From contig JBMNFL010000001.1 of the NCBI GenBank assembly GCA_050949315.1, positions 901,888 to 965,887 on the forward strand: DNA of 64,000 nt. The letters are read 5' to 3'. Below are positions 2,004 to 62,866 of the stretch, one piece after another. The DNA is from Bacilli bacterium (GTDB taxonomy: Bacteria; Bacillota_I; Bacilli_A; RFN20; UBA1709). Every line of letters starts with the position of its first letter. The first letter of the stretch is position 1. The translations under genes were made by a program, and so were the position numbers. Below the pieces are notes generated by a model that saw only the letters and a list, made by a program, of their open reading frames with translations, searched no databases and was not told where the DNA came from.

Positions 2004-2018
2004 TTGGGGTGCGTTTAA

Positions 2019-4317: not shown

Positions 4318-6861
4318 ATGAAAAAAAGGAGCATCTTTATCTTTCTAGCAGTTTCCATTATTCTTTCCTTATTCATCAGCATAATTTATATCGTTAAAGC
4401 CTCTTCAATTGTTGAAGCTAAAGCCCACAGCAACGTGCATAGTGTGGCTACAGAAACCGCGGCTTACTTAGATAACAATGTGCAGAATACTCATGATGAT
4501 ATTGCTTTTTATATTGAAAATTCTACGAAAGAAAAAGGTGAACTGGTCAGTGAGCTCTATTCTAAATATAGTAGTCGTTTTATCGGCTTTGGTTATTGTG
4601 AGGGCATAAGCGGCGAAGATCCTAAACTCGTTTCTTATGCGGGCAAGGATGATTATGAGTTATTTGCTTTTAACTTTTCCCATTCGGAGCGCTTTTTCGC
4701 CCAGCAATGTGCCATAACTAATTTATCAAGATTCTTTGATAATCTAACGGATGAGCAAAATGAAGTGGTCATCTTCTATCATTTTGACGATTATTTTGCC
4801 TTTCAGCCCTTTTCGGCTTATGAGACGATGTTGAGCAGTGCTTATCCTGAGGGCACTAGATATCTTGTTAGCACAGGGGATGGCTTAATCTTAGCCAATT
4901 CTTTCAGTGACGATATGTCGATGAGCAGCATTTTTAGAATGTCAGTTGATCCCTTCCCTGGTTTTGTTGAGGATATCTTAGCAGGTGAGGGTCAATCTAA
5001 AATAATGAAACTCAATAAAGGCTTATCACATTTAGTTACTGTTTCCACTTGTTTAGAAGATTTTAATGATGATGGTGTTTATATCTTTGTCATCGTCGAT
5101 AATATTTATATCACTAATTTCTTGAATTCACTGCTTATCATCACCGCGATTTACAATGCCTTCTTTATTGTGATCAATGTTGGGATGGCGCTAACCATGT
5201 ATTTTACTAAGCGCAGCAGTCGGGACTTAATTATTCCCTTTTCCTATGAAGATCATTATGTTTTACTGGTCGGTGAAGATGGTAAGATTATAAGTAAAAA
5301 CAAGCGTTTTAGCAAATCAAAGTATAATTGTGGCAATCTACTAAGAACAGGGGTTGTTGAACTTAAGGAGCAAACAACTGAAGAATTAAAGAACTTATTA
5401 GAAACAGCTTCTTCTTTGACTTTGCGTTATGTCTTTGATGATAAGATTGAAGATATCAATTTCTTGATTTTAAATTCAAAGATCGGCTATCAATTAATTG
5501 CCGAAGCCTATGATGATGCTTATATAGCTCGTGATAGGAAGGGTAGCAGAAGAGGGGTTAGTATTGATTATGCTTATCAAGATGATTTTTACGATATTTT
5601 AAATAGAAAAGCGCTATTAGAACGTTTGAAGGATACAATTGCCAACAAGAAGAAATATTTAAATGTTTATCTTGTTTGTTGCTCCTTGAAAAATCACGAT
5701 GAAATTACGCGTTTATATGGTCAGCATATTCACGAGATGATTAATACAGAAGTTATTAATCGCTTGAAGAAGTCTTTAGATGGTAATGAGATCTACTCTA
5801 TCAATGACAATTTCTGTGCTTTCTTTGTTCATTTAAAGGATAACTTCAATGATTTAAGAAGACAGATGGAAGTTATTAATAAAGAGCAAAGACATCCTAT
5901 CAGTATCTATTCCAGTGATTCAATAGTTGAGCCCTATTTCGGTATTTATCCTCTTTCTTTAATTGAGGCCAATGAAGATCCAACGCCAAGAGGTATTATC
6001 AATAAGGCGATAATTGCCTATAACCGGGCTAAACAGAGTAAGGATCAAAACTATTATTTATACGATATCAGTTCCGAGTCTTTGCTCGAACGTGAGCAAA
6101 TAGTAGCGGATGATATTAAAAAAGGTATTGAAAACAATGAGTTTGAGACCCACTTCCAACCAGTTTACAATTTAAAAGAAGATCGGGTATCGGGCTTTGA
6201 ATGTCTGTTAAGATGGAATAATGACAAATACCGTTTTGAGTCGCCGTATGAATATATCAAAGTTGCCGAGCATGCGGGCTATATCCACGATATTGGTATT
6301 TTTACTTTCCGCAAGGCCTTGGAGTTACTTAAAGAGTTAAATAGAGATGATATTCGAGTATCGGTTAACGTTTCGCTTGCTCAATTTATGCAGGCTGGCT
6401 TTACCACGGATGTTATTAATCTTTTTAAGGAATATGATGTTCCTTATTCCAGTGTGGCGATGGAAATCACTGAGACTTTCTTTGCCGAGTCTATTCAAGA
6501 AATTACTGATAAATTAGAATATATTCGTTCCTTTGGCATTAAAATTTATCTAGATGACTTTGGGACGGGCTACTCATCTTTGCTTTATTTAGCAGAGTTC
6601 CCAGTGGATGTTATTAAGATTGATAAAGAATTTACCAATCAAATTAAAGCTAATGAAAGTGTAAGAACAATTATGTCTTATTTAATTGGTATGGCTAATG
6701 CCATAGGTTTAGATGTGGTGGCTGAGGGTGTAGAAACCGACTATCAGCTCAAGTTCTATGAACGCCAGAAATGCAATTATATACAAGGCTTTTATTTCTC
6801 TAAACCGCTACCAGTGTCTGAGGTCCAAAAGGCCTTAGAAATCAAAAGGAGTGATGTCTAA
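4318..6861 (+). CDS. Membrane sensor protein (two TM segments flanking a ~250-aa extracytoplasmic domain) with a degenerate GGDEF domain and an EAL domain. Probable c-di-GMP phosphodiesterase.
   Basis: EAL-domain signatures are present: FQPVYNL, GFECLLRW (ECL variant of EAL), NVSLAQF, EITE, YLDDFGTGYSSL, EGVET, QGFYFSKP. The GGDEF position reads SINDNFCAF, which is degenerate. It starts 4 nt after the sipW stop with a GAGGAG Shine-Dalgarno. Confidence 0.8.
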   Translation: MKKRSIFIFLAVSIILSLFISIIYIVKASSIVEAKAHSNVHSVATETAAYLDNNVQNTHDDIAFYIENSTKEKGELVSELYSKYSSRFIGFGYCEGISGEDPKLVSYAGKDDYELFAFNFSHSERFFAQQCAITNLSRFFDNLTDEQNEVVIFYHFDDYFAFQPFSAYETMLSSAYPEGTRYLVSTGDGLILANSFSDDMSMSSIFRMSVDPFPGFVEDILAGEGQSKIMKLNKGLSHLVTVSTCLEDFNDDGVYIFVIVDNIYITNFLNSLLIITAIYNAFFIVINVGMALTMYFTKRSSRDLIIPFSYEDHYVLLVGEDGKIISKNKRFSKSKYNCGNLLRTGVVELKEQTTEELKNLLETASSLTLRYVFDDKIEDINFLILNSKIGYQLIAEAYDDAYIARDRKGSRRGVSIDYAYQDDFYDILNRKALLERLKDTIANKKKYLNVYLVCCSLKNHDEITRLYGQHIHEMINTEVINRLKKSLDGNEIYSINDNFCAFFVHLKDNFNDLRRQMEVINKEQRHPISIYSSDSIVEPYFGIYPLSLIEANEDPTPRGIINKAIIAYNRAKQSKDQNYYLYDISSESLLEREQIVADDIKKGIENNEFETHFQPVYNLKEDRVSGFECLLRWNNDKYRFESPYEYIKVAEHAGYIHDIGIFTFRKALELLKELNRDDIRVSVNVSLAQFMQAGFTTDVINLFKEYDVPYSSVAMEITETFFAESIQEITDKLEYIRSFGIKIYLDDFGTGYSSLLYLAEFPVDVIKIDKEFTNQIKANESVRTIMSYLIGMANAIGLDVVAEGVETDYQLKFYERQKCNYIQGFYFSKPLPVSEVQKALEIKRSDV

Positions 6862-8324
6862 TGATATTAGCAAGAACAGCAAGTACTAGTGATCCAGTCT
6901 TTACGGGTTTGATCATTATTGTGATAATTGGCCTAAGTGTTTTACTACTTTGGTCCATTATCCGCGAAATGAAAAAAAGAAAAAAAGAACGGGAACAACC
7001 AAAAAAGACCCCAGGTTTAATGTCCTTATCCCATTTGACGGAGTCTTTAAACGAATTTGTTCGGGTTTATCACCTTTCTAAGAAGGCGACAATTTTTGTC
7101 TTTTCCTTTGCTAATGCCAATGAACTAGCCGAGTCGTTTGGTCGTCGAACCGAGATGATTTTAAAAGATAAGGTTCTCCAGAATGTGATAAAAATTCTCC
7201 CTAGAAACGCGGTTTTAGCTGAATACAGGAACGAAAGCGATAGTTACGCTTTACTATTAAGAGGCGATTTTCCTGAAGACAAACTCTTAAGTTTTGCTAA
7301 CTACCTAGTCAGCGTTATTGAAACTCCTGTTGCGGTTCCTAACCTTGAGATTGAAATTTCCTATTCAGCTTATTTAGGTATTGTCTATTATCCAACTCAT
7401 GCCATTTCGGTTACTGATTTGTTAAACAAGGCCGATGTCGCTCTTTATATGAACCAGAAGAGCCCTAACACCAAATACACGGTTTATTCTTCCTCTTTCG
7501 CGGTTACCGAAGAAGAGAATCTTGTTTACTATAACCAAATCAAAGCCGCCATTAAAAACAAAGAATTTGAACTTTATTATCAACCAATTTGTGAATGTAA
7601 AACCCAAAACATTGTTGGTTTTGAAGCCTTGATTCGCTGGAAACATCCAGAATTAGGCATATTAAATCCAGCCAAATTCCTTTCTGTTTTAGAGAATTCT
7701 GGGGATATAAACTGGATTGGCAAATGGAGCATGCATGTTATCTGTGCTTACTATAATGAACAGCGCGCTCTTTTCAAAGAACATAATGTTTTCTTCTCAG
7801 TAAACCTTTCAGTTAAGCAATTGCTCAATGAGAACTTGGTCAATGATTTTGCCGCTATTCTCAATCAATATCATGTGCCTACTGACGCAATTTGTTTTGA
7901 AATTGAAGAATATGCCCTTTATGAACGTTATCCTGTCATTCAAACAACGATTCGAGAATTAGGAGAGAAAGGTTTCAAACTCGCTATTGATCACTTTGGT
8001 TTAGATTCTAATAACATCAAGAAATTAGAATCACAAGAACCCTATATGATTAAACTTGTAGCAAAAGACACCTTGGAAGCCCAAGACTCCTTTGTTGGGT
8101 CGCGTGTTTTCGAGATTTTAATTGATACCTGTAAAAAGCGAAATATTAAAATTTCCTCTTTAATGGTTGAAAATCAAGATGATATCAAAAAACTTGAAGA
8201 AAGCGGTTTTGATTATCAGCAAGGCTATTTTATTGCTGAGCCGATGAGTGCTAAAGACAATGCTGAATTCTTTTCCGCCAGCTTTCGCCTAAAAGAAGAT
8301 GAAAGCAAGAAAAAGGAAGAATAA
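6861..8324 (+). CDS. Membrane protein with a degenerate GGDEF and a partly degenerate EAL domain. Likely a catalytically inactive c-di-GMP-binding protein.
   Basis: The EAL motif is intact (GFEALIRWKHPELG). DHFGLDSNN replaces DDFGTGYSS and VENQDD replaces EGVET. An ATGA overlap with the upstream stop at 6859-6863 indicates translational coupling. N-terminal TM IIIVIIGLSVLLLWSII. Confidence 0.7.
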   Translation: MILARTASTSDPVFTGLIIIVIIGLSVLLLWSIIREMKKRKKEREQPKKTPGLMSLSHLTESLNEFVRVYHLSKKATIFVFSFANANELAESFGRRTEMILKDKVLQNVIKILPRNAVLAEYRNESDSYALLLRGDFPEDKLLSFANYLVSVIETPVAVPNLEIEISYSAYLGIVYYPTHAISVTDLLNKADVALYMNQKSPNTKYTVYSSSFAVTEEENLVYYNQIKAAIKNKEFELYYQPICECKTQNIVGFEALIRWKHPELGILNPAKFLSVLENSGDINWIGKWSMHVICAYYNEQRALFKEHNVFFSVNLSVKQLLNENLVNDFAAILNQYHVPTDAICFEIEEYALYERYPVIQTTIRELGEKGFKLAIDHFGLDSNNIKKLESQEPYMIKLVAKDTLEAQDSFVGSRVFEILIDTCKKRNIKISSLMVENQDDIKKLEESGFDYQQGYFIAEPMSAKDNAEFFSASFRLKEDESKKKEE

Positions 8325-12044: not shown

Positions 12045-12160
12045 AAAGACCTCCTTTTAAGAGGTCCGCATAACAGCGGACGCGTTAGAAAACCGCCACT
12101 TAGTGTTCGCGCTAACGCAACTTCCCATCATTAGCTACTTTACGCTTTCTAACTACTCTG
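12045..12160 (-). promoter_or_regulatory. Probable THF (tetrahydrofolate) riboswitch with an RBS-sequestering hairpin
   Basis: The minus-strand leader reads AGAGUAGUUAG...GCGUAAAGU...UGGGAAG...UGCGUUAGCGCG...CGCGUCCGCUG. These match conserved THF-aptamer blocks (GAGUAG, GCGUUAAGU, GGGAUG, GCGCGG). The hairpin GACCUCUUAAAAGGAGGUC pairs the AGGAGG Shine-Dalgarno immediately before the ATG. A -10 TTATAAT lies at 12170-12176 (minus). Confidence 0.5.
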
Positions 12161-12244
12161 TTTTCTCTAATTATAAGGGAAGTTAGTTAAAAGTGTTACA
12201 AAAAAATAAAAATAATTTATAATAGGCACAAGGGAGAAGTAAAA

Positions 12245-12904: not shown

Positions 12905-12914
12905 ACGTGTTAGA

Positions 12915-13002
12915 ATAAGCGCGGGAGCTCACGATATGGGCTGAGAGTATCGTATTTGCGATAGACCGATATACCTGATCTAGATAATGCTAGCGGAGGA
13001 AA
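12915..13002 (+). promoter_or_regulatory. TPP (thiamine pyrophosphate) riboswitch
   Basis: GGGAGCUC...GGGCUGAGAGU...ACCGAUAUACCUGAUCUAGAUAAUGCUAGCGGAGGAAAG. This contains the canonical CUGAGA and ACCUGAUCUAGAUAAUGCUAGCG THI-box blocks. The expression platform overlaps the Shine-Dalgarno of the downstream S-component gene. Confidence 0.85.
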
Positions 13003-13006
13003 GAAT

Positions 13007-13591
13007 ATGAACATCAGAATCAGACAGATGACTGAAACCGCTATTTTGATTGCTTTAGCGGTTTTATTAGATTTATTATTCAAAGCAATACCAATTTTAA
13101 AGATGCCTACCGGTGGGAGTTTTTCACTAACAATGCTACCACTTATAATTAACGGTTATCGCAACGGCCTTAAATGGGGCATAATTAGTGGTCTTGCCTA
13201 TGCTGTTATCAATTTTGCTCTTGATGGCTATTATTGGCATTGGGGTTCAATTGTTTTTGATTATCTCTTGGCCTTTGGTTTACTGGGCTTAACAGGGTTA
13301 TTTAAAAATCTTGGGCGAAGAAAACCCATCTATATTTTTGGGATTATTTTTGTTTGTTTTTTACGTTATCTTTGCCATAGTTTGAGCGGAGTTATCTTTT
13401 TTAGTTCTTATGCTGAAGATTGGTTTACTGAAAACCCAACCTCCTTTGCCTACGGCTCAGTTTTCCTTTATTCCTTTGTTATTTACAACGGTCCTTATAT
13501 GTTAGCCAACACTATTGGCTGTTTAATTGCATCTTTAGCGCTTTATCGCTTTATTTATCCAGTCAAGAAGGTGTATAATGGCAACAAGTAG
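13007..13591 (+). CDS. thiT: ECF-transporter S component of the thiamine family (ThiT-like)
   Basis: 194-aa protein with 6 TM segments. It sits immediately downstream of the TPP riboswitch. W/G-rich loops are typical of ThiT. Confidence 0.7.
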   Translation: MNIRIRQMTETAILIALAVLLDLLFKAIPILKMPTGGSFSLTMLPLIINGYRNGLKWGIISGLAYAVINFALDGYYWHWGSIVFDYLLAFGLLGLTGLFKNLGRRKPIYIFGIIFVCFLRYLCHSLSGVIFFSSYAEDWFTENPTSFAYGSVFLYSFVIYNGPYMLANTIGCLIASLALYRFIYPVKKVYNGNK

Positions 13592-24939: not shown

Positions 24940-25917
24940 ATGTATAGCAAACGTCCTTTGGACTTAGTAAGAATTGTTAATGAAGAACAGGCGCAGGCTT
25001 TCCTAACTACGCAAAGCGAGATTTTAAAAAAGCAGATAGGCGAACAAAAAGTTTTACTAGCCTTATCGGGTGGTGTTGATTCGGCGGTAGTGGCGGTATG
25101 GCTTTCAAAAATTATTAAACAAAATCTGATTTGCATTCATGTTAATAATGGCCTTCTACGGCAAGGCGAGAGCGAAGGTGTAGTAGAACTTTTTAAGGAC
25201 GAATTAAAAATAAATTTGCTGTCTGTTGATGCTAGCCAGCGTTTCTTAAAGTTATTAGAAGGAGTTTCTGATCCCGAAGAGAAACGTAAAATTATTGGGG
25301 AGACTTTTATTAAAGTTTTTCAGGAAGAAAGTAGTAAATTAAAAAACATTAACTTCTTAGCTCAAGGGACAATTTATCCCGATATTTTAGAAAGCGCGAA
25401 CGTTAAGGCTCATCACAATGTTGGCGGCTTACCAGAAGAGCTTGGTTTTCAACTGATTGAACCTTTAAAGTTTTTGTATAAAGATGAGGTTCGTCTGTTA
25501 GGCAAGGTTTTAGGCTTGCCAGACTCTTTGATTCATCGGCAACCCTTTCCTGGACCTGGTCTTGCAGTTCGCTGCTTAGGCGAGATTACACCTGAACGTT
25601 TAGAGATTGTTAGGAAATCCGATGCTATTTTGCGAGAAGAAATCGCTAACTATAAAATAGATACCAAAATTTGGCAATACTTTACAGTTGTTCCTAATTT
25701 CAAATCAACGGGTGTTGTTGATGGTCAAAGAAGTTATGCCTATCCTGTAATCATTCGAGCGGTCAATAGTGTTGATGCTATGAGTGCGGAAGTCTACGAG
25801 TTACCTTATGAACTCCTTCATAAATTGACCGAACGGATTACTAAGGAAGTAAAAAACGTCAACCGCGTTCTTTATGACTTAACTCCTAAACCTGTAGGAA
25901 CGATTGAATGGGAGTAG
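24940..25917 (+). CDS. guaA: GMP synthase ATP-pyrophosphatase (PP-loop) subunit. This is the GuaA C-terminal half as a stand-alone protein, without a glutamine amidotransferase domain.
   Basis: LALSGGVDSAV PP-loop. C-terminal dimerisation domain ending YDLTPKPVGTIEWE. 325 aa. Confidence 0.75.
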   Translation: MYSKRPLDLVRIVNEEQAQAFLTTQSEILKKQIGEQKVLLALSGGVDSAVVAVWLSKIIKQNLICIHVNNGLLRQGESEGVVELFKDELKINLLSVDASQRFLKLLEGVSDPEEKRKIIGETFIKVFQEESSKLKNINFLAQGTIYPDILESANVKAHHNVGGLPEELGFQLIEPLKFLYKDEVRLLGKVLGLPDSLIHRQPFPGPGLAVRCLGEITPERLEIVRKSDAILREEIANYKIDTKIWQYFTVVPNFKSTGVVDGQRSYAYPVIIRAVNSVDAMSAEVYELPYELLHKLTERITKEVKNVNRVLYDLTPKPVGTIEWE

Positions 25918-26009: not shown

Positions 26010-26042
26010 AAAAAGGTGGTCGAAAGTTTGACCACCTTTTAA
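26010..26042. terminator. Bidirectional rho-independent terminator between guaA (+) and mscS (-)
   Basis: AAAAAAGGTGGTC, loop GAAAGTT, TGACCACCTTTTAAA. There is an A-run on one side and a T-run on the other. Confidence 0.75.
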
Positions 26043-26060: not shown

Positions 26061-27098
26061 TTATTTATCGTCATCCATAATATGTTTAGACAATTCTTTT
26101 TGTTCATCAACGAAAACATTAGTTGAACCTTTTCTAACGCCTTTCGCCTCAAAGGTTTGGGGCTCATTGACAATGATTTGCGGCAGGGCGATATAGATTT
26201 TGTTTTCATCGAAGATAAGTTTTATCTCACGATTTAAATCACGGACCAGTTGGTAACGATCGTTTTCATCACAACGGGCGATTAAACGAATAAAAACACC
26301 TTTATCGGCTAATTTGCTAACACCTTTATAGAAAGGTCCTTCAACGATAGAAGGCAGCCGATTTTTAATGCGTTCTAAATTTTCCGAAATGACTTTTTCG
26401 ACCCGTTCTAAAGACTCACCATATTCAATGGCCACATCGCAGATAGCAAGTGACAAATCACTGGTCATGTTGATCATTCTGCGAATGTCAGAGTTGTTGA
26501 TTACTTGGATATCACCACCAACATCAATAATTTTGGTGGTTCTAACCCCGATTTCTTGAACCGTGCCTCTAAAACCATCGATAACCACAACATCACCGAC
26601 ATCAAAGTTTTGTTCAAAGACGATGAAAAGTCCGCTGATGACATCTTCAATTAAGGGTTGGGCCCCAAGACCAATGATGAGTCCGAGAATACCAACACTA
26701 GCAATCAGCGCTGCCGTATCAACGCCCCAGAGTTTAAGAATCCAAATAATTAAAACAATAACCGCCAAATATTTAATAAGACTTTTAACAAGATCCAAAA
26801 CTGATTTTCGTCTGGTTAGTCGTTTCTCTAAAAGACTGAGTAAGAAACGCAGTATTTTAGAAAGTCCCAAGATGACAATAATAAGAAGTAGTGTTGTTAT
26901 AAGGGTGGGGAAGCGGTTTTTAAAGAATAGGCCAATTGAATTTAAGGCGTCTAAACTTGCCCCTAGATAAGATGTTTCGCCAAAAATTAACGGGGCCAAC
27001 AAAACAAACAAAACAAAGAGCCCACAGATGGCAAAGAAGATAGCTTTAGAGATAAAGCGTTTATCTTTGCAGCGACATGATTTTTTTTCTTTTTCCAT
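26061..27098 (-). CDS. Small-conductance mechanosensitive channel (MscS family)
   Basis: Three N-terminal TM helices, then the MscS beta-domain motif DVGDVVVIDGFRGTVQEIGVRTTKII. The ORF track starts at TTG 27113. The ATG at 27098 (MEKEKK...) has a GGAGG Shine-Dalgarno and lies 17 nt after the stop of the giant repeat gene. Confidence 0.8.
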   Translation of the reverse strand: MEKEKKSCRCKDKRFISKAIFFAICGLFVLFVLLAPLIFGETSYLGASLDALNSIGLFFKNRFPTLITTLLLIIVILGLSKILRFLLSLLEKRLTRRKSVLDLVKSLIKYLAVIVLIIWILKLWGVDTAALIASVGILGLIIGLGAQPLIEDVISGLFIVFEQNFDVGDVVVIDGFRGTVQEIGVRTTKIIDVGGDIQVINNSDIRRMINMTSDLSLAICDVAIEYGESLERVEKVISENLERIKNRLPSIVEGPFYKGVSKLADKGVFIRLIARCDENDRYQLVRDLNREIKLIFDENKIYIALPQIIVNEPQTFEAKGVRKGSTNVFVDEQKELSKHIMDDDK

Positions 27099-27115
27099 TT
27101 TTCTAACCTCCAATG

Positions 27116-30100
27116 TTAAAGTTCAATACTTTCTTCAAAAAGAACAGTTTCGCTGTCATCATTTTTGATACCAATAAAGCGGAATTGGTAAATATAAGGA
27201 GCGGGTGTAGGTGGGGCCGATAACACCTGCTCATCGGTTAAGATGTTGCCAACAATATTTTGGACAATAGGATTTTCAGGATCTCTAGAATCCACTAATA
27301 AAACCTTGTAACTAACATATTGTTCTTGATAGTCACTATGACTATCAACTTTATAATATTTATTAGGATCTTGAGGTTTTTCATAGATAGAGACTATAGT
27401 TATTTTTTCAGTGTGATGTTCGTTATAGTAAACAAGGCGACCATCTTTCTGAATTTCAAAACGATAGAGGCTATCTTCATTTAAAATATTGTAGTTAACT
27501 ATAATTTGTACTAACTCGCCAGATCCATCTAACATATAGGCGATATTGGCATAATCATCAGAAATTTCATTGGGGTCGCTAGTTACCGCTTCAATTGTTA
27601 GTTCACTTAAAGGTGTTGTCTCGCCAGCCGGGATTAAAAGCAGGGTGATGGGCGAGAAATTACTGGCTTCCGTTTCAATAGTGAAGTGTATTTCTTGATC
27701 ACTCATTGAAATCTCGCTTTGTTGATAACTAAAGAGACTGATAGAATCTTCGTATAAGATTGCTTGTGAATTATCGTGTTTAATTCCAATTAATTCGAAA
27801 ATATAGGAATCGGGGCTGTAGTCGTTGGGATTTAAGACTTTTTCGCCACTCCAGTTTTCACCTAGTTGAATTAAGGGTTCAGAAGAAGGACTGTGTTCTC
27901 CTGTTAGTCTAACAGCATAACTCTTATACTGATCCTGATAATCGCTATGTTCAATTTGATAATAGACATTACTATCATCTTTCTTGGTTGAGAAACTGAC
28001 ATTGGTCACTTTTTCAGTATGGGAGTCAAAACTGATTAAGACTTCATCGTTCTCTGCCTTACTTAGTTGGAAAGATAAAGGTGTATTGGGCGGTAAGGGG
28101 TAGTAAAAGCTCAGCTGCAAGAGATTATCATCGACATTAGGAACAACGGTTACGTTACAATCACCATTTACGATAGTGTTAGACTCTGAACTATCAATAT
28201 TCATTACAATCTCAGTAGCCGAAATTGTTAGAATTGATTTTAAAGGAACAAAGTCATAATAAGAGAGGTTGATAGTAAAACTAACACCATTATTGCCAAC
28301 ATTTAAATCATCAAGGCGATAACTATCAATATATATTGTTTCTTCATATAAAGGTATTTCAAAGCTATCTTCTCTACTGATGCCATAAAGCTTATAAACA
28401 TATTGCCAAGCAGGGAAACTATCAAGTTGAATTACCTGCTCATCGCTGATCGAACCTTCTATGGATAAGGGATAGGTTTGGGGAGTAGCTCCGGCTTCAT
28501 TGACTATGCTAGTCAAAGTAGCAGTGTAGCCTTGATAAGAATTATTATAATCACTGGTACTGATTTGATAATAGAAGTTTTCATTATCGCCGGTTTTACG
28601 GTAAAAAGTTGCCGTGGTGTCTTTTTCGGTTCTAAAACTCAATTCATAGAGTATAGTTGAACCTCTTTGTAAGATAAAGTTATATTCGCTATCTGCCTGT
28701 AAGTAATACTGGAATTCTAGGGTAACAAGATCATCTTGAATATTAGGTGAGATACTCAGACGGTTATCCTCATTAAAAAGGGTATTATCTTCAGGACTAT
28801 CAATGTTAAAGACACTTTCAAATCCTTCCCCAGTTAATCTTGCCACCATTGGTTCGAAATCTTGATAGGGCGGCACATCGATGATGAGATAAGCATCGCT
28901 TGAAGTGATACTTAGCATCTTGGCCCTTATTGGCATAAATAAAACTTGTTCAAGTAGTAGCAGTTCATCTTGTAGGTTGTCTCTTAGGCGCCCAAAGAGT
29001 TTAAAGTTGTATTGAGGGGCGTTAAAGGTTGTTAGACTCAAAGCTTGTTCAGTATGGACGTTAGAACTAGTAAGTGTGAAATTTTCAATGTAAGGTGTAC
29101 CAGTTGTAACTTCGCTTATTTGTACGCGATAATCAAGAAATCTTTGCTGATAATCACTGGATTCAATTTGATAATAGAAGTTATCGTTATTGCTTGTTTT
29201 ACGGTAGAATTCCACAGAAGTTTCTTTTTCGCTTCTAAAATTCTTTTGATATAAAAGCTCGTTACCGCGTTTTAAGCGGAAAGTATAATTAGTGTCGGCA
29301 GTTAAACCAAAGAAACTGACATTTACAGTCAGAAGATTGTTTTCGCCAGGCGGATTTAGACTTATTGAAGCAAAGCTATTCGAAACTTGAGGCTGGTTAA
29401 GATTGTTAAGGGCAATCGTTTTTTCTTCGCTTCCTTTAAGCAAACTAAAAATAAGCGGGGCAAAGTTTTCCCTAGACAAATCTAGAGTTGTAGATAAGGA
29501 GAAATCATTATAAGTGAAATCTTGAGCAATTACCTTATCAATATTTACCGTTTCTCTTAGTAGTTCAAATTCATCGCCACTATCACGCAGAGTAGCATGG
29601 AGACTGATTTCATATTGCCAAGCATTATAGATAGTAAGGTCAATTTTTTGTTCATCAGTAATTGAACCGCTAACATCTAAATAATGTTCAGTTTGACTAC
29701 TGGCAGTTTCTGTTAGTTTAACTTTATATCCCGCATATCTTTCTTGATAGTCGCTAAGGTCAAATTGATAATAGAAATAGTTATTATCACCACTTTTATG
29801 ATAAAGGTTAACACTTGTTGTTTTTTCAGTTCTGATATCCCGTTCTAGAATCACACGATTTTGTTTAGTTAATTTAAAGTGGTAGAGTGCATCAGGTGTT
29901 AAATTCTCACAACTAAATTGGATTAAAATCTTATTTTCTTGAGTATTGACATGCAGGAAAACCCAAGAATTTTGGGTACTATATTCAGTTACATTAAGAT
30001 TTTCAATGTCAAAGTGTTCATTTAAATTCTCACCACTTAAGTCAAGGCTTAAAGTTGCGAAAGTATCACAGGGAAGTTCAAAAGAAAGTTGCAAGTCTTG

Positions 30101-31393
30101 ATCATTTATTTCTAAATAGACGAGTCGACCTTGATCAAAGGTTAATAGTTCTTCATAAAGGCTAATCTCACGTTCGTAAGTTTGACCAAAGCCATGCACA
30201 TAACTAAGTCCAATTAAGACAAAACGATATTGACTCTCGTCATAGTCAGCAAGCGTAATCTTTTGCTCGCTAAAGATATCGCCAACAAGAGGAAGTTCAT
30301 AATCTTGTTCGTCAACCAAACTGACAAGTTTTACCTTGTAAGCATGGAAACGTTTACGATAATCACTCATTGAAATTTGGTAATATAGATCAGGGTCATT
30401 ATCCTTATAATGGAACTCAACCTTTAATTGTTTTTCGGTATGGAAGGTTTCCTGATAGAATTTGCGTTTGTTTCTCTGAACTTGGAATTTATAGACGGAA
30501 TCTTCTTGTAAATTGTTATAGTAAAGATTTAAAAGCAAACGATTTTCGCTAGCTAAAGGGCAGACTTCTAGAGAACTGTTTTCTTGTGAGAAACTCTGTT
30601 CTTCATTGCTTTCAACTTGGAAAGTACTAAAGATATTACCGGCTTGATCAATTAAATCAAGACTTAAAGTTTTGAAATTTGAATTAGCAAGTTCAAAGGT
30701 GAAACTTAAATCTTTATCGGTAATTTCTAGATTACTGACGTGATAATTACCTGTTTGCACTTGCTCCTCATAGATGGTTGTGCCACCCAAATTCCCTTTG
30801 TCAATGACTTTAAAAGTATAAAGGTTGTTAGCTTCCAGCCCAGTATAAAAACAATAAAAATTAACGGTTTCTAAATCGGTTTCTGTACGCACATTATCTA
30901 AAAGAGTGTAAAAAGAATCACTGCTTTCAAAAGAAGTGATGGCCGTTTCTTTTTTGTGATAATCATTACCAAAAGAAATAAGCAAATTAGGATTCTCATA
31001 GTAATCCATTTCTAGATTAATTTGATATTCGTTAAGTGAGAGTTCACTAAAAACTTTTTTAATTTGAGGCGAGTTTAAAGCGGTAACAGCAGCTGTGGAT
31101 ACGACAACCGAAGCCACAGCAGCGTAGGAAACTAATTTACTGATGCCACTTGCTCCGGCTTCGTGAGCCTTGGCACCTCTTATGCCACCGCCTCTTCTAT
31201 GGGTTTTCTTACTAAAAAGTTCGCTGTTTTCTTCATCTGTTTCTTTGCGATTTCGTTCATGTGAAGAACGATATTCTCTTTTCGAACGAAAATTATTTTC
31301 ATCACTATAATTATGTTCATGGTAAGGTCTATTTTCATAACCAAAGCGGCGATGGTCGGCTTCTTTTCGCTGGTAATTATTATTGTTTTCCAC
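27116..31393 (-). CDS. Giant (1425 aa) type-II membrane protein with ~6-7 tandem ~200-aa extracellular repeats. Function unknown.
   Basis: GTG start with a GGAGGTGG Shine-Dalgarno. Disordered R/E/N/H-rich N-terminal ~85 aa, one TM (VSYAAVASVVVSTAAVTAL), then repeats each carrying HTEK..V.FY.K..D.N.YYQ(I/F)..SDYQ..Y..Y.V.L and LSLDLS blocks. YYQ recurs at about aa 337, 541, 740, 941, 1144 and 1346. The ~570-bp DNA period shows as related antisense ORFs at 28478 and 29045. Confidence 0.8.
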   Translation of the reverse strand: MENNNNYQRKEADHRRFGYENRPYHEHNYSDENNFRSKREYRSSHERNRKETDEENSELFSKKTHRRGGGIRGAKAHEAGASGISKLVSYAAVASVVVSTAAVTALNSPQIKKVFSELSLNEYQINLEMDYYENPNLLISFGNDYHKKETAITSFESSDSFYTLLDNVRTETDLETVNFYCFYTGLEANNLYTFKVIDKGNLGGTTIYEEQVQTGNYHVSNLEITDKDLSFTFELANSNFKTLSLDLIDQAGNIFSTFQVESNEEQSFSQENSSLEVCPLASENRLLLNLYYNNLQEDSVYKFQVQRNKRKFYQETFHTEKQLKVEFHYKDNDPDLYYQISMSDYRKRFHAYKVKLVSLVDEQDYELPLVGDIFSEQKITLADYDESQYRFVLIGLSYVHGFGQTYEREISLYEELLTFDQGRLVYLEINDQDLQLSFELPCDTFATLSLDLSGENLNEHFDIENLNVTEYSTQNSWVFLHVNTQENKILIQFSCENLTPDALYHFKLTKQNRVILERDIRTEKTTSVNLYHKSGDNNYFYYQFDLSDYQERYAGYKVKLTETASSQTEHYLDVSGSITDEQKIDLTIYNAWQYEISLHATLRDSGDEFELLRETVNIDKVIAQDFTYNDFSLSTTLDLSRENFAPLIFSLLKGSEEKTIALNNLNQPQVSNSFASISLNPPGENNLLTVNVSFFGLTADTNYTFRLKRGNELLYQKNFRSEKETSVEFYRKTSNNDNFYYQIESSDYQQRFLDYRVQISEVTTGTPYIENFTLTSSNVHTEQALSLTTFNAPQYNFKLFGRLRDNLQDELLLLEQVLFMPIRAKMLSITSSDAYLIIDVPPYQDFEPMVARLTGEGFESVFNIDSPEDNTLFNEDNRLSISPNIQDDLVTLEFQYYLQADSEYNFILQRGSTILYELSFRTEKDTTATFYRKTGDNENFYYQISTSDYNNSYQGYTATLTSIVNEAGATPQTYPLSIEGSISDEQVIQLDSFPAWQYVYKLYGISREDSFEIPLYEETIYIDSYRLDDLNVGNNGVSFTINLSYYDFVPLKSILTISATEIVMNIDSSESNTIVNGDCNVTVVPNVDDNLLQLSFYYPLPPNTPLSFQLSKAENDEVLISFDSHTEKVTNVSFSTKKDDSNVYYQIEHSDYQDQYKSYAVRLTGEHSPSSEPLIQLGENWSGEKVLNPNDYSPDSYIFELIGIKHDNSQAILYEDSISLFSYQQSEISMSDQEIHFTIETEASNFSPITLLLIPAGETTPLSELTIEAVTSDPNEISDDYANIAYMLDGSGELVQIIVNYNILNEDSLYRFEIQKDGRLVYYNEHHTEKITIVSIYEKPQDPNKYYKVDSHSDYQEQYVSYKVLLVDSRDPENPIVQNIVGNILTDEQVLSAPPTPAPYIYQFRFIGIKNDDSETVLFEESIEL

Positions 31394-31425
31394 AACGCCA
31401 CCTCCAATTATTGAATAGTGAAATT

Positions 31426-31463
31426 ATTATAGCATTTAAAAAATAAACAAAGCAATTGCTTTG
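31426..31463 (-). promoter_or_regulatory. Promoter of the giant repeat gene, with a perfect 16-bp palindrome (candidate operator) overlapping the -35
   Basis: On the minus strand: TTGCTT (31450-31455), an 18-nt spacer, then TATAAT (31426-31431). The palindrome CAAAGCAATTGCTTTG is at 31448-31463. Confidence 0.45.
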
Positions 31464-31477: not shown

Positions 31478-31520
31478 TATAAAAATAAAAAAGGACCCAA
31501 GTCCTTGTAAGACCTGGGTC
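31478..31520 (-). terminator. Rho-independent terminator after the SPFH gene (minus strand)
   Basis: On the minus strand: GACCCAGGUC, loop UUACAAG, GACUUGGGUC (10-bp stem with one mismatch), followed by CUUUUUUAUUUUUAU. Confidence 0.7.
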
Positions 31521-31531: not shown

Positions 31532-32470
31532 TTATTTCTTCTTTTCTTCTTGAGTTTTGGGCTCTTTAATAATCTCAGTAATGGAAGCAATAGTTCCGGC
31601 TAAATCTTGTAAATTAGAGGGGATAATAAGTTTGGTTGATTTACCATCCGCAACTTTTTCTAAAGCCTTGAAGCCCTCTAGAGTCATATACTCTTTAGAA
31701 GGTTTAGCTTCATTGATATAACGAATAGCATCAGCCTGAGCATGGAAGAGTTGTCTTAAGGCTTCTGCACGTCCTTCAGCCTCCGTGATGGTAGATTGTC
31801 TTGCGGCTTCGGCTTTAAGAATCATAGACTCTTTCTGACCTTGAGCAGTTAGAATAGCCGCGGTTTTTTCACCCTCGGCTCTAAGAATAGATTCTCTTCT
31901 TTCCCGTTCAGCCCGCATTTGTTTTTCCATGGCCTCTTGAATGTCTCTTGGTGGAAGAATGTTTTTCACCTCTACACGGTGAACCTTGATGCCCCAAGGA
32001 TCGGTGGCAATATCAAGAATAGAACGCATCTTGGAGTTAATGGTGTCCCTAGAAGTTAGGGTCTCATCAAGTTCCAATTCACCAATAATGTTTCTCAAAG
32101 TTGTGGCTGTAAGATTTTCAATGGCGTTCATCGGCCTTTCGACCCCGTAGCAATAGAGTTTGGGATCAGTGACAGCAAAATAAACGACCGTATCAATCTG
32201 CATGGTAACGTTATCTTTAGTGATAACAGGTTGTGGCGGGAAATCAGCGACTCTTTCTTTCAAAGAGATTTTAGCGACCACCCGGTCAAAGAAGGGCACA
32301 ATAATATTGAGTCCGCTTCCACAAACCTTAAGGAATTTTCCTAATCTTTCAACAACGATGGCTTCGCTTTGGCGAACCACGCGAATGGAAAAAAGACTTA
32401 GGGCAACGACAATAAATAGGATTACTAAAACAATAACTAAAACCGTGACATTAACTTCTGCTAAAAACAT
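31532..32470 (-). CDS. SPFH/band-7 (stomatin/prohibitin-like) membrane protein
   Basis: N-terminal TM followed by an SPFH domain (VVERLGKFLKV...GLNIIVPFFDRV...) and a C-terminal coiled coil rich in A/E/R. TAATG overlap with the nfeD stop. Confidence 0.85.
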   Translation of the reverse strand: MFLAEVNVTVLVIVLVILFIVVALSLFSIRVVRQSEAIVVERLGKFLKVCGSGLNIIVPFFDRVVAKISLKERVADFPPQPVITKDNVTMQIDTVVYFAVTDPKLYCYGVERPMNAIENLTATTLRNIIGELELDETLTSRDTINSKMRSILDIATDPWGIKVHRVEVKNILPPRDIQEAMEKQMRAERERRESILRAEGEKTAAILTAQGQKESMILKAEAARQSTITEAEGRAEALRQLFHAQADAIRYINEAKPSKEYMTLEGFKALEKVADGKSTKLIIPSNLQDLAGTIASITEIIKEPKTQEEKKK

Positions 32471-32937
32471 TAGATTTCCTCCTTTTTAACAACATAGAAT
32501 TTATTACCACTAATTTCGGTGATAATAGCAATATCACCCACATCAACTCTTTGACCCTCGCGGCAAATCAGAGTATAGATTAAGCCAGCGTATTTCCCTT
32601 CGCCATAGTTGAGATGATCGGCGGCTTTGATGACGACGACTTCCTGACCAATGGCGGCTTCAATATTGGTAGCAATACCGCGATTGCGAAGGACCTTGTT
32701 GGCCCAGCGTCCAATGGTAAATAACAAAATACAGGAAACAACAAGAAAAACCACGACTTGGATAACAATAGATTCCACCCCTACTAAAGAAAGAATAAGG
32801 GCGACGAAGGCACCAGCACTAAACCAAATACAATCTAGTTCTTGGGTGGAGAGTTCAATAACAATTGTTCCCACAATCAAAAGAATCCAAAGAATATTAA
32901 TGGCTGGTAGAATGGTTGTAAGAATCATACTCATCAC
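32470..32937 (-). CDS. NfeD-family short membrane protein (YuaF/YqeZ-like) with a C-terminal OB-fold
   Basis: N-terminal TM helices and a C-terminal beta domain ...VDVGDIAIITEISGNKFYVVK. It shows the classic nfeD-SPFH gene pairing. Confidence 0.7.
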   Translation of the reverse strand: MMSMILTTILPAINILWILLIVGTIVIELSTQELDCIWFSAGAFVALILSLVGVESIVIQVVVFLVVSCILLFTIGRWANKVLRNRGIATNIEAAIGQEVVVIKAADHLNYGEGKYAGLIYTLICREGQRVDVGDIAIITEISGNKFYVVKKEEI

Positions 32938-44493: not shown

Positions 44494-44559
44494 ACTTGAA
44501 TCTTTAAGTTGACTCTGCTAGAATTAGTTAGTCATCAATATACCAAAGACAGTAACGGC

Positions 44560-44646
44560 CGTTTAGGCTTAATCAGGTTACCGAGGTGTGCAAGATGCGT
44601 ATTTCATTTATGCGCTTAAACCCACACATCTCATGTGGGTTTTTAA
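44560..44646 (+). promoter_or_regulatory. rplJ (L10) leader with a terminator-like attenuator hairpin
   Basis: ~200-nt untranslated leader before rplJ. The hairpin CCCACA, loop CAUCUCA, UGUGGG is followed by UUUUU at 44640-44645, consistent with the Firmicutes L10-leader autoregulatory element. Confidence 0.5.
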
Positions 44647-44700
44647 TTAAAAGGTATATTGTTGCCTATAGATTATTGCAACAAGGAGGTGCAAAAAAGA

Positions 44701-58060: not shown

Positions 58061-59002
58061 TTAATTGTCAAGACATATGTTACACTTTGAGAAATATTCT
58101 GTTACAACTTGATTAGGGCTTTTAAAGTTAAGACATGTTTTAGCTGTATTGTTATATCGCTGCTCGTGTTTAGCTACTTGTTGTCTAAGTTCTTTCTCGC
58201 TAATAAAGATTTTTCGCCCATACAGAATTTTTCCATCTTCTCTATGACTTCTTTCAACTTTTCCGTTCTGCCACGGTGAATAAGGTCTCGTCCTTTTTAA
58301 TTTTATTCCTAACTTATTGGCCATCAGTTCAAATATACTCGTTTTATTAGTACGATCATCATCATTTACAAATTCGGCTCCGTTGTCCACTTGTATCATA
58401 TTAATTGGAAATCCCATGGCTTTTTCTAGGCTTTTAAGATATTTTGTCGTTTCGTACGTACTCTTCTCTTTGACTATACAGAGAATTCTTTTGCGACTAA
58501 ACTCATCAATTCCAGTGATTTGATAATATCTGTCTCCATATGTTGGGAATTTTATGCATTCAAGGGGAACATACTTTATATCTATCTGCACCTTGTCTCC
58601 AGGATATTTTCCGTCCAATCTTTCGTATTTTGTATAACTCTTACGATGAATTTCCGGGGTTTTATAACCCTTTTTTCGTATTTGTCGACACATACTCCCA
58701 AAACTTCTTTTATACCCTTTTTGACAACATCGAACATATACTTCTGCCAATCCATAAACACCATTTCTTCTTAACATTCGCTTAATTAGCGACAGCTCAT
58801 CATCTGTATGAGCATTTGGACTAGTCAGGGGTCTTCTTGAGCGTAAGGCAAGACTTCTGATGTCCCCATCATATTTGTTTAATTGCCTATAAACAAACTG
58901 ACGGTTGGTGTGATAACGCCTTGCGGCTCTTGTTACACCATTTTTGAGCGCATATTCACACATTTTCTGGCGAAAGCGCATTTCTTCGGTTATACTAGTC
59001 AT
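58061..59002 (-). CDS. DDE transposase with an rve (integrase-core) domain and an N-terminal HTH, as a single ORF (IS481-family-like)
   Basis: The catalytic residues fall in VQIDIKYV (D), IQVDNGAEF (D) and PYSPWQNGKVERSHR (E). 313 aa. Confidence 0.85.
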   Translation of the reverse strand: MTSITEEMRFRQKMCEYALKNGVTRAARRYHTNRQFVYRQLNKYDGDIRSLALRSRRPLTSPNAHTDDELSLIKRMLRRNGVYGLAEVYVRCCQKGYKRSFGSMCRQIRKKGYKTPEIHRKSYTKYERLDGKYPGDKVQIDIKYVPLECIKFPTYGDRYYQITGIDEFSRKRILCIVKEKSTYETTKYLKSLEKAMGFPINMIQVDNGAEFVNDDDRTNKTSIFELMANKLGIKLKRTRPYSPWQNGKVERSHREDGKILYGRKIFISEKELRQQVAKHEQRYNNTAKTCLNFKSPNQVVTEYFSKCNICLDN

Positions 59003-62564: not shown

Positions 62565-62638
62565 TGGAGCATGTGACGGGAATCGAACCCGCATAACCAG
62601 CTTGGGAAGCTGGGGTTCTACCACTGAACTACACATGC
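62565..62638 (-). tRNA. tRNA-Gly (anticodon CCC)
   Basis: GCAUGUG-UA-GUUCAGUGGUAGAAC-C-CCAGC-UUCCCAA-GCUGG-UUAU-GCGGG-UUCGAUU-CCCGU-CACAUGC-U-CCA. Confidence 0.8.
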
Positions 62639-62771
62639 ATCGCATGATTAAATTAAACTATTCCATCTAAAATGTCAATTAAGGAAAGCAGGGAAACGTT
62701 TTTTATTGTTGACTAAAAAGCGTGAAAAGTGGTATATTTTATTAGCGTTAGTGAATGATGTGATTCTCTAG

Positions 62772-62847
62772 GGATGCTTAGCTCAGTTGGGAGAGCACTG
62801 CCCTTACAAGGCAGGGGTCGGGGGTTCAAGCCCCTCAGTATCCACCA
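62772..62847 (+). tRNA. tRNA-Val (anticodon UAC)
   Basis: GGAUGCU-UA-GCUCAGUUGGGAGAGC-A-CUGCC-CUUACAA-GGCAG-GGGUC-GGGGG-UUCAAGC-CCCUC-AGUAUCC-A-CCA. Confidence 0.9.
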
Positions 62848-62866
62848 TTCCTAATTAGATACCTGT

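What the first reader, a model, noticed from the sequence alone, without database searches (positions are those of the whole stretch)
27116..31393. Giant type-II membrane protein built from ~6-7 tandem ~200-aa extracellular repeats of an undescribed domain
Seen: the 1425-aa ORF has a GTG start, a disordered R/E/N/H-rich cytoplasmic N-terminus (~85 aa), a single TM, and then an ectodomain made of near-periodic ~200-aa units. Each unit carries an HTEK..V.FY.K..D.N.YYQ(I/F)..SDYQ..Y..Y.V.L block and an L(S/T)LDLS block. YYQ recurs at about aa 337, 541, 740, 941, 1144 and 1346. The DNA period of ~570-600 bp is strong enough to generate homologous antisense ORFs. No sortase LPXTG motif, no classical signal peptide and no known adhesin motif is recognisable. 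Inference: this is a surface-exposed repeat protein, either a sensor or adhesin, or a stalk or ruler, of a family I cannot name. Each unit probably comprises two beta-sandwich domains.
Basis: seen in the sequence. Interest (0 to 1): 0.7.

Follow-up and report, generated by a model that had tools for sequence, protein, structure and literature searches.

The report
FN3-repeat membrane protein paired with MscS
The giant ORF is a real membrane-anchored surface protein built from 13 very divergent fibronectin-III-like modules, and it belongs to an unnamed family whose genes almost always sit next to one particular mechanosensitive (MscS-type) channel gene, which suggests these bacterial channels have a dedicated partner protein.

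Summary
ORF 27116..31393 (-) encodes 1425 aa: a basic polar tail, one TM helix, one orphan module and six ~200-aa units that are 24-34% identical. The YYQ positions are exactly as reported.

The gene has its own promoter-like site and RBS and is followed 17 nt later by a 4-TM MscS-family channel gene, then a terminator. Every distant relative with readable flanks has the same neighbour. Starting from the channel, 57 of 80 metagenomic loci carry a tail+TM+FN3-like gene directly adjacent (46 upstream, 11 downstream). None of 461 other ORFs there, and none of 2,651 control ORFs, match.

The cytoplasmic tails share an enriched E-[F/Y]-[N/R/Q/K] motif. Strain alleles differ by a 137-substitution tract confined to this gene (dN/dS 0.12).

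Best reading: a surface-exposed accessory partner of an MscS-like channel. The linkage is shown; physical coupling is inferred. No such partner turned up in the literature searched.

The parts
27116..31393 (-). Gene for the 1425-aa single-pass FN3-repeat protein (stop TAA at 27118..27116). Equals NCBI MGI6378281.1, 'hypothetical protein [Bacilli bacterium]'.
   Evidence: dN/dS 0.12 between alleles
31399..31405 (-). Ribosome-binding site GGAGGTG, 5 nt upstream of the GTG start.
   Evidence: read from the sequence
31426..31434 (-). Promoter-like extended -10 element, TGcTATAAT. Inferred; the consensus scan did not list it because the -35 is weak.
   Evidence: read from the sequence
31494..31520 (-). 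Intrinsic-terminator-like hairpin (12-bp stem plus T-run) ending the upstream NfeD-SPFH operon. It separates that operon from the giant gene.
31142..31393 (-). Cytoplasmic N-terminal tail, aa 1-84. It is polar (R/E/N/H-rich, pI 9.3) and holds one canonical E-Y-R motif (aa 40-42, in KREYRSS) plus degenerate copies (NNYQ, HNYS, NNFR).
31076..31141 (-). Single transmembrane helix, aa ~85-106 (SKLVSYAAVASVVVSTAAVTAL). It is rich in small residues, with K/R on the N-terminal side, consistent with N-in topology.
30761..31075 (-). Membrane-proximal orphan module A, aa 107-211 (FN3-like, no B partner).
30149..30760 (-). Repeat unit 1, aa 212-415: module A plus module B.
29552..30148 (-). Repeat unit 2, aa 416-614. 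This is the unit modelled (pLDDT 86, two beta-sandwiches).
28949..29551 (-). Repeat unit 3, aa 615-815.
28340..28948 (-). Repeat unit 4, aa 816-1018.
27734..28339 (-). Repeat unit 5, aa 1019-1220.
27119..27733 (-). Repeat unit 6, aa 1221-1425 (C-terminus; no anchor motif).
27107..27111 (-). RBS GGAGG for the MscS gene. It starts 4 nt after the giant gene's stop codon and lies 8 nt before the ATG at 27098.
   Evidence: read from the sequence
26061..27098 (-). Partner gene: a 345-aa MscS-family channel. It has the MscS core (aa 72-318, E 5e-41 to T. tengcongensis MscS 3UDC) plus an extra N-terminal TM helix (TM0, ~aa 15-39) and a ~25-aa C-terminal extension.
26011..26040 (-). Terminator-like hairpin (11-bp stem plus T-run) after the MscS gene; end of the two-gene operon.

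Best explanation
The ORF encodes a type-II single-pass membrane protein. From N to C it has an ~84-aa polar cytoplasmic tail, a TM helix rich in small residues, and an acidic ectodomain of 13 FN3-fold modules arranged A-(A-B)x6. If extended, the ectodomain would be a rod of roughly 40-50 nm (my estimate from about 3.5 nm per FN3 module).

It is an expanded member of an unnamed family with a common plan: tail, one TM, then one to about 13 FN3-like modules. The family's genes are encoded next to, and here co-transcribed with, a distinct 4-TM subfamily of MscS mechanosensitive channels in Clostridia and Bacilli.

I therefore propose it is a dedicated accessory partner of that channel. In this model the conserved parts mediate the association: the tail with its E-[F/Y]-[N/R/Q/K] motifs and the TM helix would contact the channel's extra TM0 helix, its conserved extracellular FG loop or its cytoplasmic cage. 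The fast-evolving, length-variable FN3 rod would project into or through the cell envelope as a sensor or spacer that modulates where or when the channel opens.

Shown: architecture, fold, gene pairing, motif enrichment, purifying selection.
Inferred: physical association, which parts make contact, and any effect on gating.
For: Architecture and fold:
-.

Operon structure in the window:
- A terminator follows the upstream SPFH gene.
- The giant gene has its own extended -10 element and RBS.
- A 17-nt gap containing a GGAGG separates it from the MscS ATG, and a terminator follows MscS.

Linkage starting from the repeat protein:
- The exhaustive profile search gave 10 hits. Three (P0004, P0009, P0010) look like unrelated repeat noise and one (P0002) is a fragment of this same protein.
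- Of the other six, P0005's contig is too short to read. In the remaining five (P0003, P0006, P0007, P0008, P0011) the gene immediately downstream on the same strand is an MscS-family channel of 343-379 aa, while the other neighbours differ.
- For P0008 the downstream ORF runs to the contig end and was identified as MscS by alignment, not by a Pfam call.
- The same holds in cultured Acetivibrio cellulolyticus and Clostridium yunnanense.
- These channels are orthologous: 38-74% identical and colinear, each with TM0.

Linkage starting from the channel:
- Among 80 metagenomic loci (36 clusters at 80% MscS identity), 46 have a domain-A-positive gene directly upstream (median gap 55 nt) and 11 directly downstream.
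- Four loci with at least 900 nt on both sides lack an HMM hit but still have an adjacent candidate: a polar tail + one TM + beta-rich ORF in three (L113, L149, L168) and a 5'-truncated beta-rich ORF in L170.
- The other 19 loci are too short to judge.

Specificity of the module-A HMM:
- 0 of 461 other ORFs of >=200 aa in those loci match.
- 0 of 2,651 ORFs of >=100 aa in 80 unrelated Clostridia loci match.

Conserved cytoplasmic feature:
- E[FY][NRQK] occurs 45 times in 35 non-redundant tails, against 6.7 +/- 2.5 in shuffles (0 of 1000 shuffles reach it). Ectodomains show 42 against 27.

Other:
- The gene is under purifying selection.
Against: - No direct evidence of protein-protein contact. 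No complex prediction was possible, and no fused (Rosetta-stone) protein appears among the 120 best MscS hits, all 318-392 aa.
- Gene adjacency can reflect co-regulation of envelope genes without physical association.
- The window protein's own tail has only one canonical motif copy.
- The TM helices share composition, not a strict motif.
- The module-A HMM was iterated on the adjacent ORFs themselves. The controls address specificity, not independence.
- Many loci are related, so the counts are not independent events.
- Canonical MscS and MscL gate from membrane tension alone, without accessory proteins (review PMC13591265).
- No distal wall-binding or ligand-binding domain is recognisable.
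Confidence: 0.55

Rival explanations
1. It is an autonomous surface protein, such as an adhesin, a spacer, a surface-coat component or a phage-receptor decoy. It shares an operon with MscS only for co-regulation with other envelope genes and has no functional coupling to the channel.
For: - Tandem FN3/Ig-like rods are typical of Gram-positive surface proteins (general knowledge).
- The ectodomain is acidic and evolves fast, and the number of modules varies widely in the family.
- Allelic variation is concentrated in this gene, as at surface-antigen loci: 137 of 140 mismatches in 19 kb.
- Some loci carry other huge surface proteins next to the pair.
Against: - This does not explain why the pairing with one MscS subfamily survives across channels that have diverged to ~40% identity while all other neighbours change, and survives a swap in gene order.
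- It does not explain why the conserved features are the cytoplasmic tail motif and the topology rather than the ectodomain.
- There is no recognisable wall anchor or ligand-binding domain.
Confidence: 0.22
2. It is a force-transmitting tether (gating spring). The FN3 chain would link the channel to the cell wall or an external matrix so that wall strain, not only bilayer tension, opens the MscS-like channel. This is analogous to protocadherin-15 tip links acting on the TMC channel complex.
For: - It shows the same obligatory pairing as the best explanation.
- It is a single-pass protein with a chain of tandem beta-sandwich modules, a domain type that bears force in titin and fibronectin (general knowledge).
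- The channel has an extra TM0 and a conserved extracellular FG loop that could receive a pull.
Against: - No second attachment point is evident. The C-terminus ends in an ordinary B module without LPXTG, SLH, LysM, a choline-binding domain or SH3b.
- Family members with a single A-B unit (283-287 aa) would be too short to span a Gram-positive wall.
- Length is not conserved.
Confidence: 0.1
3. It is a biogenesis, localisation or stability factor for the channel, for example targeting the heptamer to septa or poles or protecting it from proteolysis, and does not regulate gating.
For: - Conserved pairing and small intergenic gaps or overlaps are compatible with stoichiometric co-synthesis (median gap 55 nt; some overlaps of 2-16 nt).
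- The cytoplasmic short linear motifs could recruit other factors.
Against: - A long, variable extracellular rod is unnecessary for a chaperone-like role.
- Canonical MscS assembles without helpers (general knowledge).
Confidence: 0.1

Closest known systems
Fibronectin type III domain (Pfam PF00041 fn3; E-set/Ig-like beta-sandwich superfamily)
   Same: - Both modules are ~100-aa beta-sandwiches.
- Module A has the F-strand motif L-x-P/A-D-x-x-Y-x-F.
- Relatives P0003 and P0005 reach the fn3 cutoff at whole-protein level (29.1 and 25.2 bits against 25).
- UniRef labels the C. yunnanense relative 'Fibronectin type-III domain-containing protein'.
   Different: - The window protein has no fn3 hit even at E<=10.
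- Module B has its own signature (TEK..V.FY.K..D.N.YYQI..SDYQ..Y..Y.V.L). It was detected only in this species and in the small Acetivibrio/C. yunnanense proteins.
- Sequence identity to solved FN3 domains is 7-18%.
MscK / MscM / YbiO-type MscS-like channels with large extracytoplasmic N-terminal domains (E. coli)
   Same: An MscS core is combined with extra TM helices and a large domain outside the membrane (PDB matches 7UW5 MscK and 11SM MscM; reviews). They show that MscS cores can be modulated by appended external modules.
   Different: - There the extra domain is fused in cis. From general knowledge it is mostly helical and follows a signal peptide.
- Here it is a separate polypeptide of FN3 modules on its own TM anchor, encoded by a separate gene with its own stop codon and RBS.
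- No fused form appears among the 120 best channel homologues.
Sortase-anchored Gram-positive repeat adhesins (Rib/alpha-like, SasG/Aap, Big, Cna-B, DUF11 types)
   Same: Long rods of tandem Ig-like/FN3-like modules; an acidic, fast-evolving, surface-exposed ectodomain.
   Different: - Opposite topology and anchoring: no N-terminal signal peptide and no C-terminal LPXTG. It is anchored instead by an internal N-proximal TM behind an 84-aa cytoplasmic tail.
- No Pfam hit to any of these repeat families.
- Obligatory MscS neighbour.
Single-pass partners of eukaryotic mechanosensitive channels (protocadherin-15/TMIE with TMC-1; MDFIC with PIEZO)
   Same: This is a 'works like' analogy only: a single-pass protein, in one case with a chain of tandem beta-sandwich repeats, associates with a mechanosensitive channel (papers listed, PMC9605866 and PMC12266723; otherwise general knowledge).
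   Different: There is no homology in either the channel or the partner. Association is not demonstrated here. Bacterial MS channels are considered purely force-from-lipid.

Membership tests
FN3 domain superfamily (fold level) | Seven-stranded Ig-like beta-sandwich of ~90-100 aa with FN3 topology | tested here: met
FN3 domain family (Pfam PF00041, sequence level) | Score at or above the Pfam fn3 gathering threshold | tested here: not met
   No fn3 hit for the window protein at E<=10. Among distant relatives, P0003 (29.1 bits) and P0005 (25.2 bits) pass the cutoff of 25, while P0006, P0007 and P0011 fall below it.
FN3 domain family (sequence signature) | F-strand tyrosine-corner motif L-x-P-x-T-x-Y-x-F/V | tested here: met
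   Module A has LTPDALYHF, LTADTNYTF, LQADSEYNF, LEANNLYTF and LNEDSLYRF. Module B lacks it.
Sortase-anchored Gram-positive adhesins (MSCRAMM, Rib, SasG, Cna-B, Big, DUF11) | C-terminal LPXTG-type sorting signal | tested here: not met
   A regex for [LIVSN]P.[TSA][GANS] finds nothing. The C-terminus is an ordinary B module.
Sortase-anchored Gram-positive adhesins (MSCRAMM, Rib, SasG, Cna-B, Big, DUF11) | N-terminal cleavable signal peptide | tested here: not met
   The only hydrophobic segment starts at about aa 85, after a polar tail. No dedicated signal-peptide predictor was available.
Sortase-anchored Gram-positive adhesins (MSCRAMM, Rib, SasG, Cna-B, Big, DUF11) | HMM match to a named adhesin repeat family | tested here: not met
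   Pfam gives only a sub-threshold Hom_end_hint hit, which is noise (21.5 bits against 32.1). NCBIfam gives 0 hits and PDB sequences give 0 hits.
MscS-adjacent tail+TM+FN3-like family (defined here; no public name found) | Polar cytoplasmic N-tail, one TM helix rich in small residues with K/R on its N side, then at least one FN3-like A module | tested here: met
   Window protein. The same plan appears in P0003, P0006-8, P0011 and 36 complete metagenomic ORFs.
MscS-adjacent tail+TM+FN3-like family (defined here; no public name found) | Gene directly adjacent to, and on the same strand as, a TM0-containing MscS orthologue | tested here: met
   The window has a 17-nt gap. In the family, 57 of 80 loci are positive, 4 loci with enough DNA lack an HMM hit, and 19 are too short.
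MscS-adjacent tail+TM+FN3-like family (defined here; no public name found) | E-[F/Y]-[N/R/Q/K] motifs in the cytoplasmic tail | tested here: inconclusive
   The family-wide enrichment is strong (45 against 6.7 +/- 2.5). The window tail has one canonical copy (EYR within KREYRSS) plus degenerate ones.
MscK/MscM-type MscS-like channels | Extracytoplasmic domain covalently fused to the MscS core | tested here: not met
   The two are separate ORFs with a stop codon, an RBS and an ATG between them. The 120 best channel homologues are 318-392 aa.
Accessory subunit of an ion channel (functional class) | Physical association with the channel and an effect on its gating, abundance or localisation | not testable with these tools
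   Only genomic linkage is available. Complex prediction and experiments were not possible.

The most novel reading that the evidence does not exclude
A widespread subfamily of MscS channels in Clostridia and Bacilli works as a two-component machine. A single-pass protein binds the heptameric channel through its cytoplasmic E-[F/Y]-[N/R] motifs and its TM helix, and couples it to the cell envelope through a variable chain of FN3 modules. It would be the first dedicated accessory or tether subunit of a bacterial mechanosensitive channel, and an exception to the pure force-from-lipid view of MscS gating.
Probability: 0.3. Interest if true: 0.85.

Novelty: new variant of a known kind. Interest (0 to 1): 0.62.

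Why it matters
Bacterial MscS and MscL channels are the textbook case of gating by membrane tension alone, 'without accessory proteins' (review PMC13591265). MscS homologues of Gram-positive bacteria are poorly characterised.

A partner gene that stays next to one MscS subfamily across dozens of divergent lineages, in either gene order, gives a concrete and testable hypothesis: these channels have an extracellularly exposed auxiliary subunit.

The pair also exists in cultured organisms (Acetivibrio cellulolyticus, Clostridium yunnanense), so patch-clamp, pull-down and down-shock experiments are feasible.

Separately, the protein adds a sequence family (module B, and the tail motif) that no public domain library covers.

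If the link is only co-regulation, the finding reduces to one more fast-evolving FN3-repeat surface protein.

Tried and rejected
- **Domain libraries.** Pfam, NCBIfam and PDB sequence searches of the full protein found nothing usable. The Hom_end_hint hit (21.5 bits against a cutoff of 32.1, stretched over 467 aa) was rejected as noise.
- **DNA repeats.** TRF found no DNA tandem array.
- **Word-indexed homologue search.** It returned only a 97% allele.
- **Genome-contig scans.** The scan with the whole protein found no relative.
- **Synteny via IMPDH.** Eighty loci at 74-78% identity were too distant. None has the giant gene, MscS or SPFH nearby. They were reused as a negative control.
- **AFDB Foldseek library.** Not available.
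- **Rosetta-stone fusion of MscS with FN3 repeats.** None among the 120 listed hits. The remaining ~2,650 hits were not visible.
- **Strictly conserved TM motif.** Rejected. Only the composition is shared.
- **Repeat-number variation among strains.** All full-length alleles seen are 1425 aa. The fragmented copy in L176 sits on a contig with indels in neighbouring genes too, so I treat it as sequencing error.
- **Link to the upstream NfeD-SPFH operon.** Rejected as part of the system. A strong terminator separates them and the pairing is absent from all other loci.
- **Hits P0004, P0009 and P0010.** Judged unrelated repeat proteins: they have signal peptides and BACON- or FN3-like low-complexity repeats.
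- **Literature.** Five full-text searches found no description of such a pair.

Full report
**1. Observation**

The ORF is as described.
- It spans 27116..31393 (-), 1425 aa, with a GTG start.
- The GTG sits 5 nt after GGAGGTG, and database entries use the same start.
- YY[QK] lies at aa 337, 541, 740, 941, 1144 and 1346. The TEK block lies at 318, 521, 720, 921, 1125 and 1327.
- There is one hydrophobic helix, at about aa 85-106.

Cutting at these landmarks gives six units of 199-205 aa, 24-34% identical pairwise. A half-unit (aa 107-211) aligns only with the first ~100 aa of each unit. Protein autocorrelation peaks at lags of about 201-205, 400-406 and 603-607, with z of 3.3-6.2.

Three details needed correcting.
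- L[ST]LDL is present in only two units.
- The period is about 603 bp, not 570-600 bp.
- DNA periodicity is weak: 32% against 29% identity, with no TRF array.

The antisense 'ORFs' are open stretches of 75 codons or fewer. Three share similarity, as a mirror of the conserved sense block.

**2. What the repeat is**

No Pfam, NCBIfam or PDB-sequence match exists.

The ectodomain is therefore A-(A-B)x6, 13 FN3-fold modules. It is very acidic (net charge -117, pI 4.3). The tail has pI 9.3, and there is no LPXTG. Charge distribution supports N-in/C-out topology.

The 'undescribed domain' is a known fold with orphan-level sequence divergence.

**3. Rarity and relatives**

A profile of the six units was searched exhaustively against 1.84 billion representative proteins. 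It found 10 hits.
- One is a fragment of the same protein.
- Three look like unrelated repeat proteins.
- Six are true distant relatives: P0003 (1480 aa), P0005-8 (468-604 aa) and P0011 (287 aa). Five of them show a polar tail, one TM and tandem FN3-like A modules. P0005 shows only the A modules, with no TM detected.

Module B was found only in the window species and in P0011. P0011 is from Clostridium yunnanense. An Acetivibrio cellulolyticus protein (WP_010244360, 283 aa) has the same single A-B unit. The window protein thus looks like a six-fold expansion of that unit.

All database names are 'hypothetical protein', apart from one automatic 'FN3 domain-containing' label.

The window matches an NCBI MAG labelled 'Bacilli bacterium'. 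Its IMPDH is only 74-78% identical to the nearest species representatives, which are uncultured Clostridia from herbivore guts. The lineage is therefore poorly sampled.

**4. Context: the main result**

In the window:
- A strong terminator (31520..31494) ends the upstream NfeD-SPFH operon.
- An extended -10-like TGcTATAAT and an RBS precede the giant gene.
- Its stop codon is followed after 17 nt, which include a GGAGG, by the ATG of a 345-aa MscS-family gene (26061..27098).
- A terminator follows that gene at 26040..26011.

All five distant relatives with enough downstream DNA have an MscS gene of 343-379 aa immediately downstream on the same strand. Their other neighbours differ. These channels are orthologues: 38-74% identical and colinear. 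Each has an extra N-terminal TM0, an invariant FG in the first external loop, and a conserved C-terminal extension. The MscS core matches T. tengcongensis MscS at E 5e-41.

I then started from the channel instead. A metagenome scan returned 80 loci, which form 36 clusters at 80% channel identity. I searched them with a module-A HMM iterated from the window's units.
- 46 loci have a positive gene directly upstream (median gap 55 nt).
- 11 have one directly downstream.
- 4 loci with at least 900 nt on both sides have no HMM hit but still have an adjacent candidate: a tail+TM+beta-rich ORF in three and a 5'-truncated beta-rich ORF in the fourth.
- 19 loci are too short to judge.

The HMM is specific. 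None of the 461 other ORFs of >=200 aa in these loci match. None of 2,651 ORFs of >=100 aa in 80 unrelated Clostridia loci match.

**5. Conserved parts of the partner**

Ectodomains vary from 1 to about 13 modules and are barely alignable. Three things recur:
- the topology;
- a TM helix rich in small residues, with K/R on its N side;
- a short cytoplasmic motif, E-[F/Y]-[N/R/Q/K]. It occurs 45 times in 35 non-redundant tails, against 6.7 +/- 2.5 in composition-preserving shuffles (0 of 1000 shuffles reach it). Ectodomains show 42 against 27.

The window tail has one canonical copy and several degenerate ones. Conservation on the cytoplasmic and membrane side, with variability outside, fits a protein that docks on a conserved membrane partner while its exposed part diversifies.

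**6. Population data**

The window allele is identical in several metagenomes. Another strain (L001/L002) differs at 140 positions in 19,091 bp. Of these, 137 lie inside this gene, all between codons 164 and 1111. For this gene dS is 0.114, dN is 0.0136 and dN/dS is 0.12.

This is a localised recombinant tract in a gene under purifying selection. The full-length alleles seen are all 1425 aa, so there is no repeat-number variation.

**7. Interpretation**

Best explanation (confidence 0.55): a surface-exposed accessory partner of a TM0-type MscS channel.

Rivals:
- an autonomous surface protein that is merely co-regulated (0.22);
- a true force-transmitting tether (0.10). This is weakened by the lack of any distal anchor and by the one-unit family members;
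- an assembly or localisation factor (0.10).

Five full-text literature searches found no description of such a pair. A 2026 review restates that bacterial MscS and MscL activation needs no accessory proteins. A literature search with these tools cannot prove novelty.

**8. Verdict**

'Undescribed domain' holds only at sequence level.

The added value is the conserved FN3-repeat/MscS gene pair and the tail motif. Physical coupling remains an inference.

Noticed in passing
window 28061..30904 (codons 164-1111 of the giant gene), compared with L001 and L002: Between two strains, 137 of the 140 mismatches in 19,091 aligned bases fall inside this one gene. The flanks are essentially identical (3 mismatches in 14.8 kb). 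This looks like a localised recombination or allele-replacement tract. dN/dS is 0.12. A third, more divergent 1425-aa allele (P0140) also exists.
   Followed up: partly
window 31142..31393 (-), and the tails of partner proteins in L099-L171, P0003 and P0006-8: The cytoplasmic tails of the family carry repeated acidic-aromatic motifs, E-[F/Y]-[N/R/Q/K] (for example SEFN, SEYN, AEYNR, ETFRS). They are about 7-fold enriched over shuffles. The binding partner is unknown.
   Followed up: partly
window 31532..32937 (-): An NfeD-like gene (32470..32937) overlaps an SPFH/Band-7 (stomatin-like) gene (31532..32470), forming a separate operon just upstream that ends in a strong terminator. This adjacency to the MscS pair is seen only in this species.
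   Followed up: partly
L172:207-8931 (Acetivibrio cellulolyticus JH556653.1) and L084:2344-10838 (Clostridium yunnanense): In these cultured species the small partner + MscS pair is preceded by a 1,885-1,976-aa surface protein (Flg_new, MBG_2, CarboxypepD_reg and Big domains). It is followed by a 264-293-aa ORF, which in A. cellulolyticus is a second, truncated-looking MscS-like protein (weak MS_channel_2nd hit; no Pfam hit for the C. yunnanense one). This suggests a larger envelope locus.
   Followed up: no
L093:2-5980, L113:3109-7884, L120:3157-7968, L122:1-3885: In some loci the gene upstream of MscS is a different giant protein: beta-helix-like repeats, C-terminal TM helices and a duplicated cytoplasmic domain ending in a motif resembling ribosomal protein uL15. 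In L120 and L122 the FN3-like partner lies downstream of MscS instead. L113 has only an unconfirmed downstream TM-containing candidate, and L093 has too little downstream DNA.
   Followed up: no
window 24940..25917 (+): The GMP synthase gene encodes only the ATP-pyrophosphatase/C-terminal part (325 aa: PP-loop + GMP_synt_C) with no glutamine-amidotransferase domain. This implies a split GuaA. The same arrangement occurs in several related Clostridia loci.
   Followed up: no
window 4318..8324 (+) and 59368..62463 (+): There are three c-di-GMP turnover proteins: GGDEF-EAL, EAL-only, and a 1031-aa 7TM-GGDEF-EAL. The last lies in a low-GC stretch (33-34%) next to an rve-family integrase/transposase gene (58061..59002, -).
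   Followed up: no
window 354..3713 (+): A 549-aa ORF with no Pfam hit is followed by a 564-aa DUF2357 protein. This could be a restriction or defence-type pair.
   Followed up: no
window 12072..12162 (-), 12911..13019 (+), 44525..44654 (+): A THF riboswitch, a TPP riboswitch and the ribosomal L10 leader are detected above Rfam gathering scores. There is a tRNA cluster at 62568..63221.
   Followed up: no
whole window, compared with L003-L082: The taxonomic labels conflict. NCBI calls the MAG 'Bacilli bacterium', but its IMPDH is closest (74-78%) to uncultured Clostridia/Oscillospiraceae MAGs from herbivore guts. No synteny survives beyond IMPDH-GuaA.
   Followed up: partly
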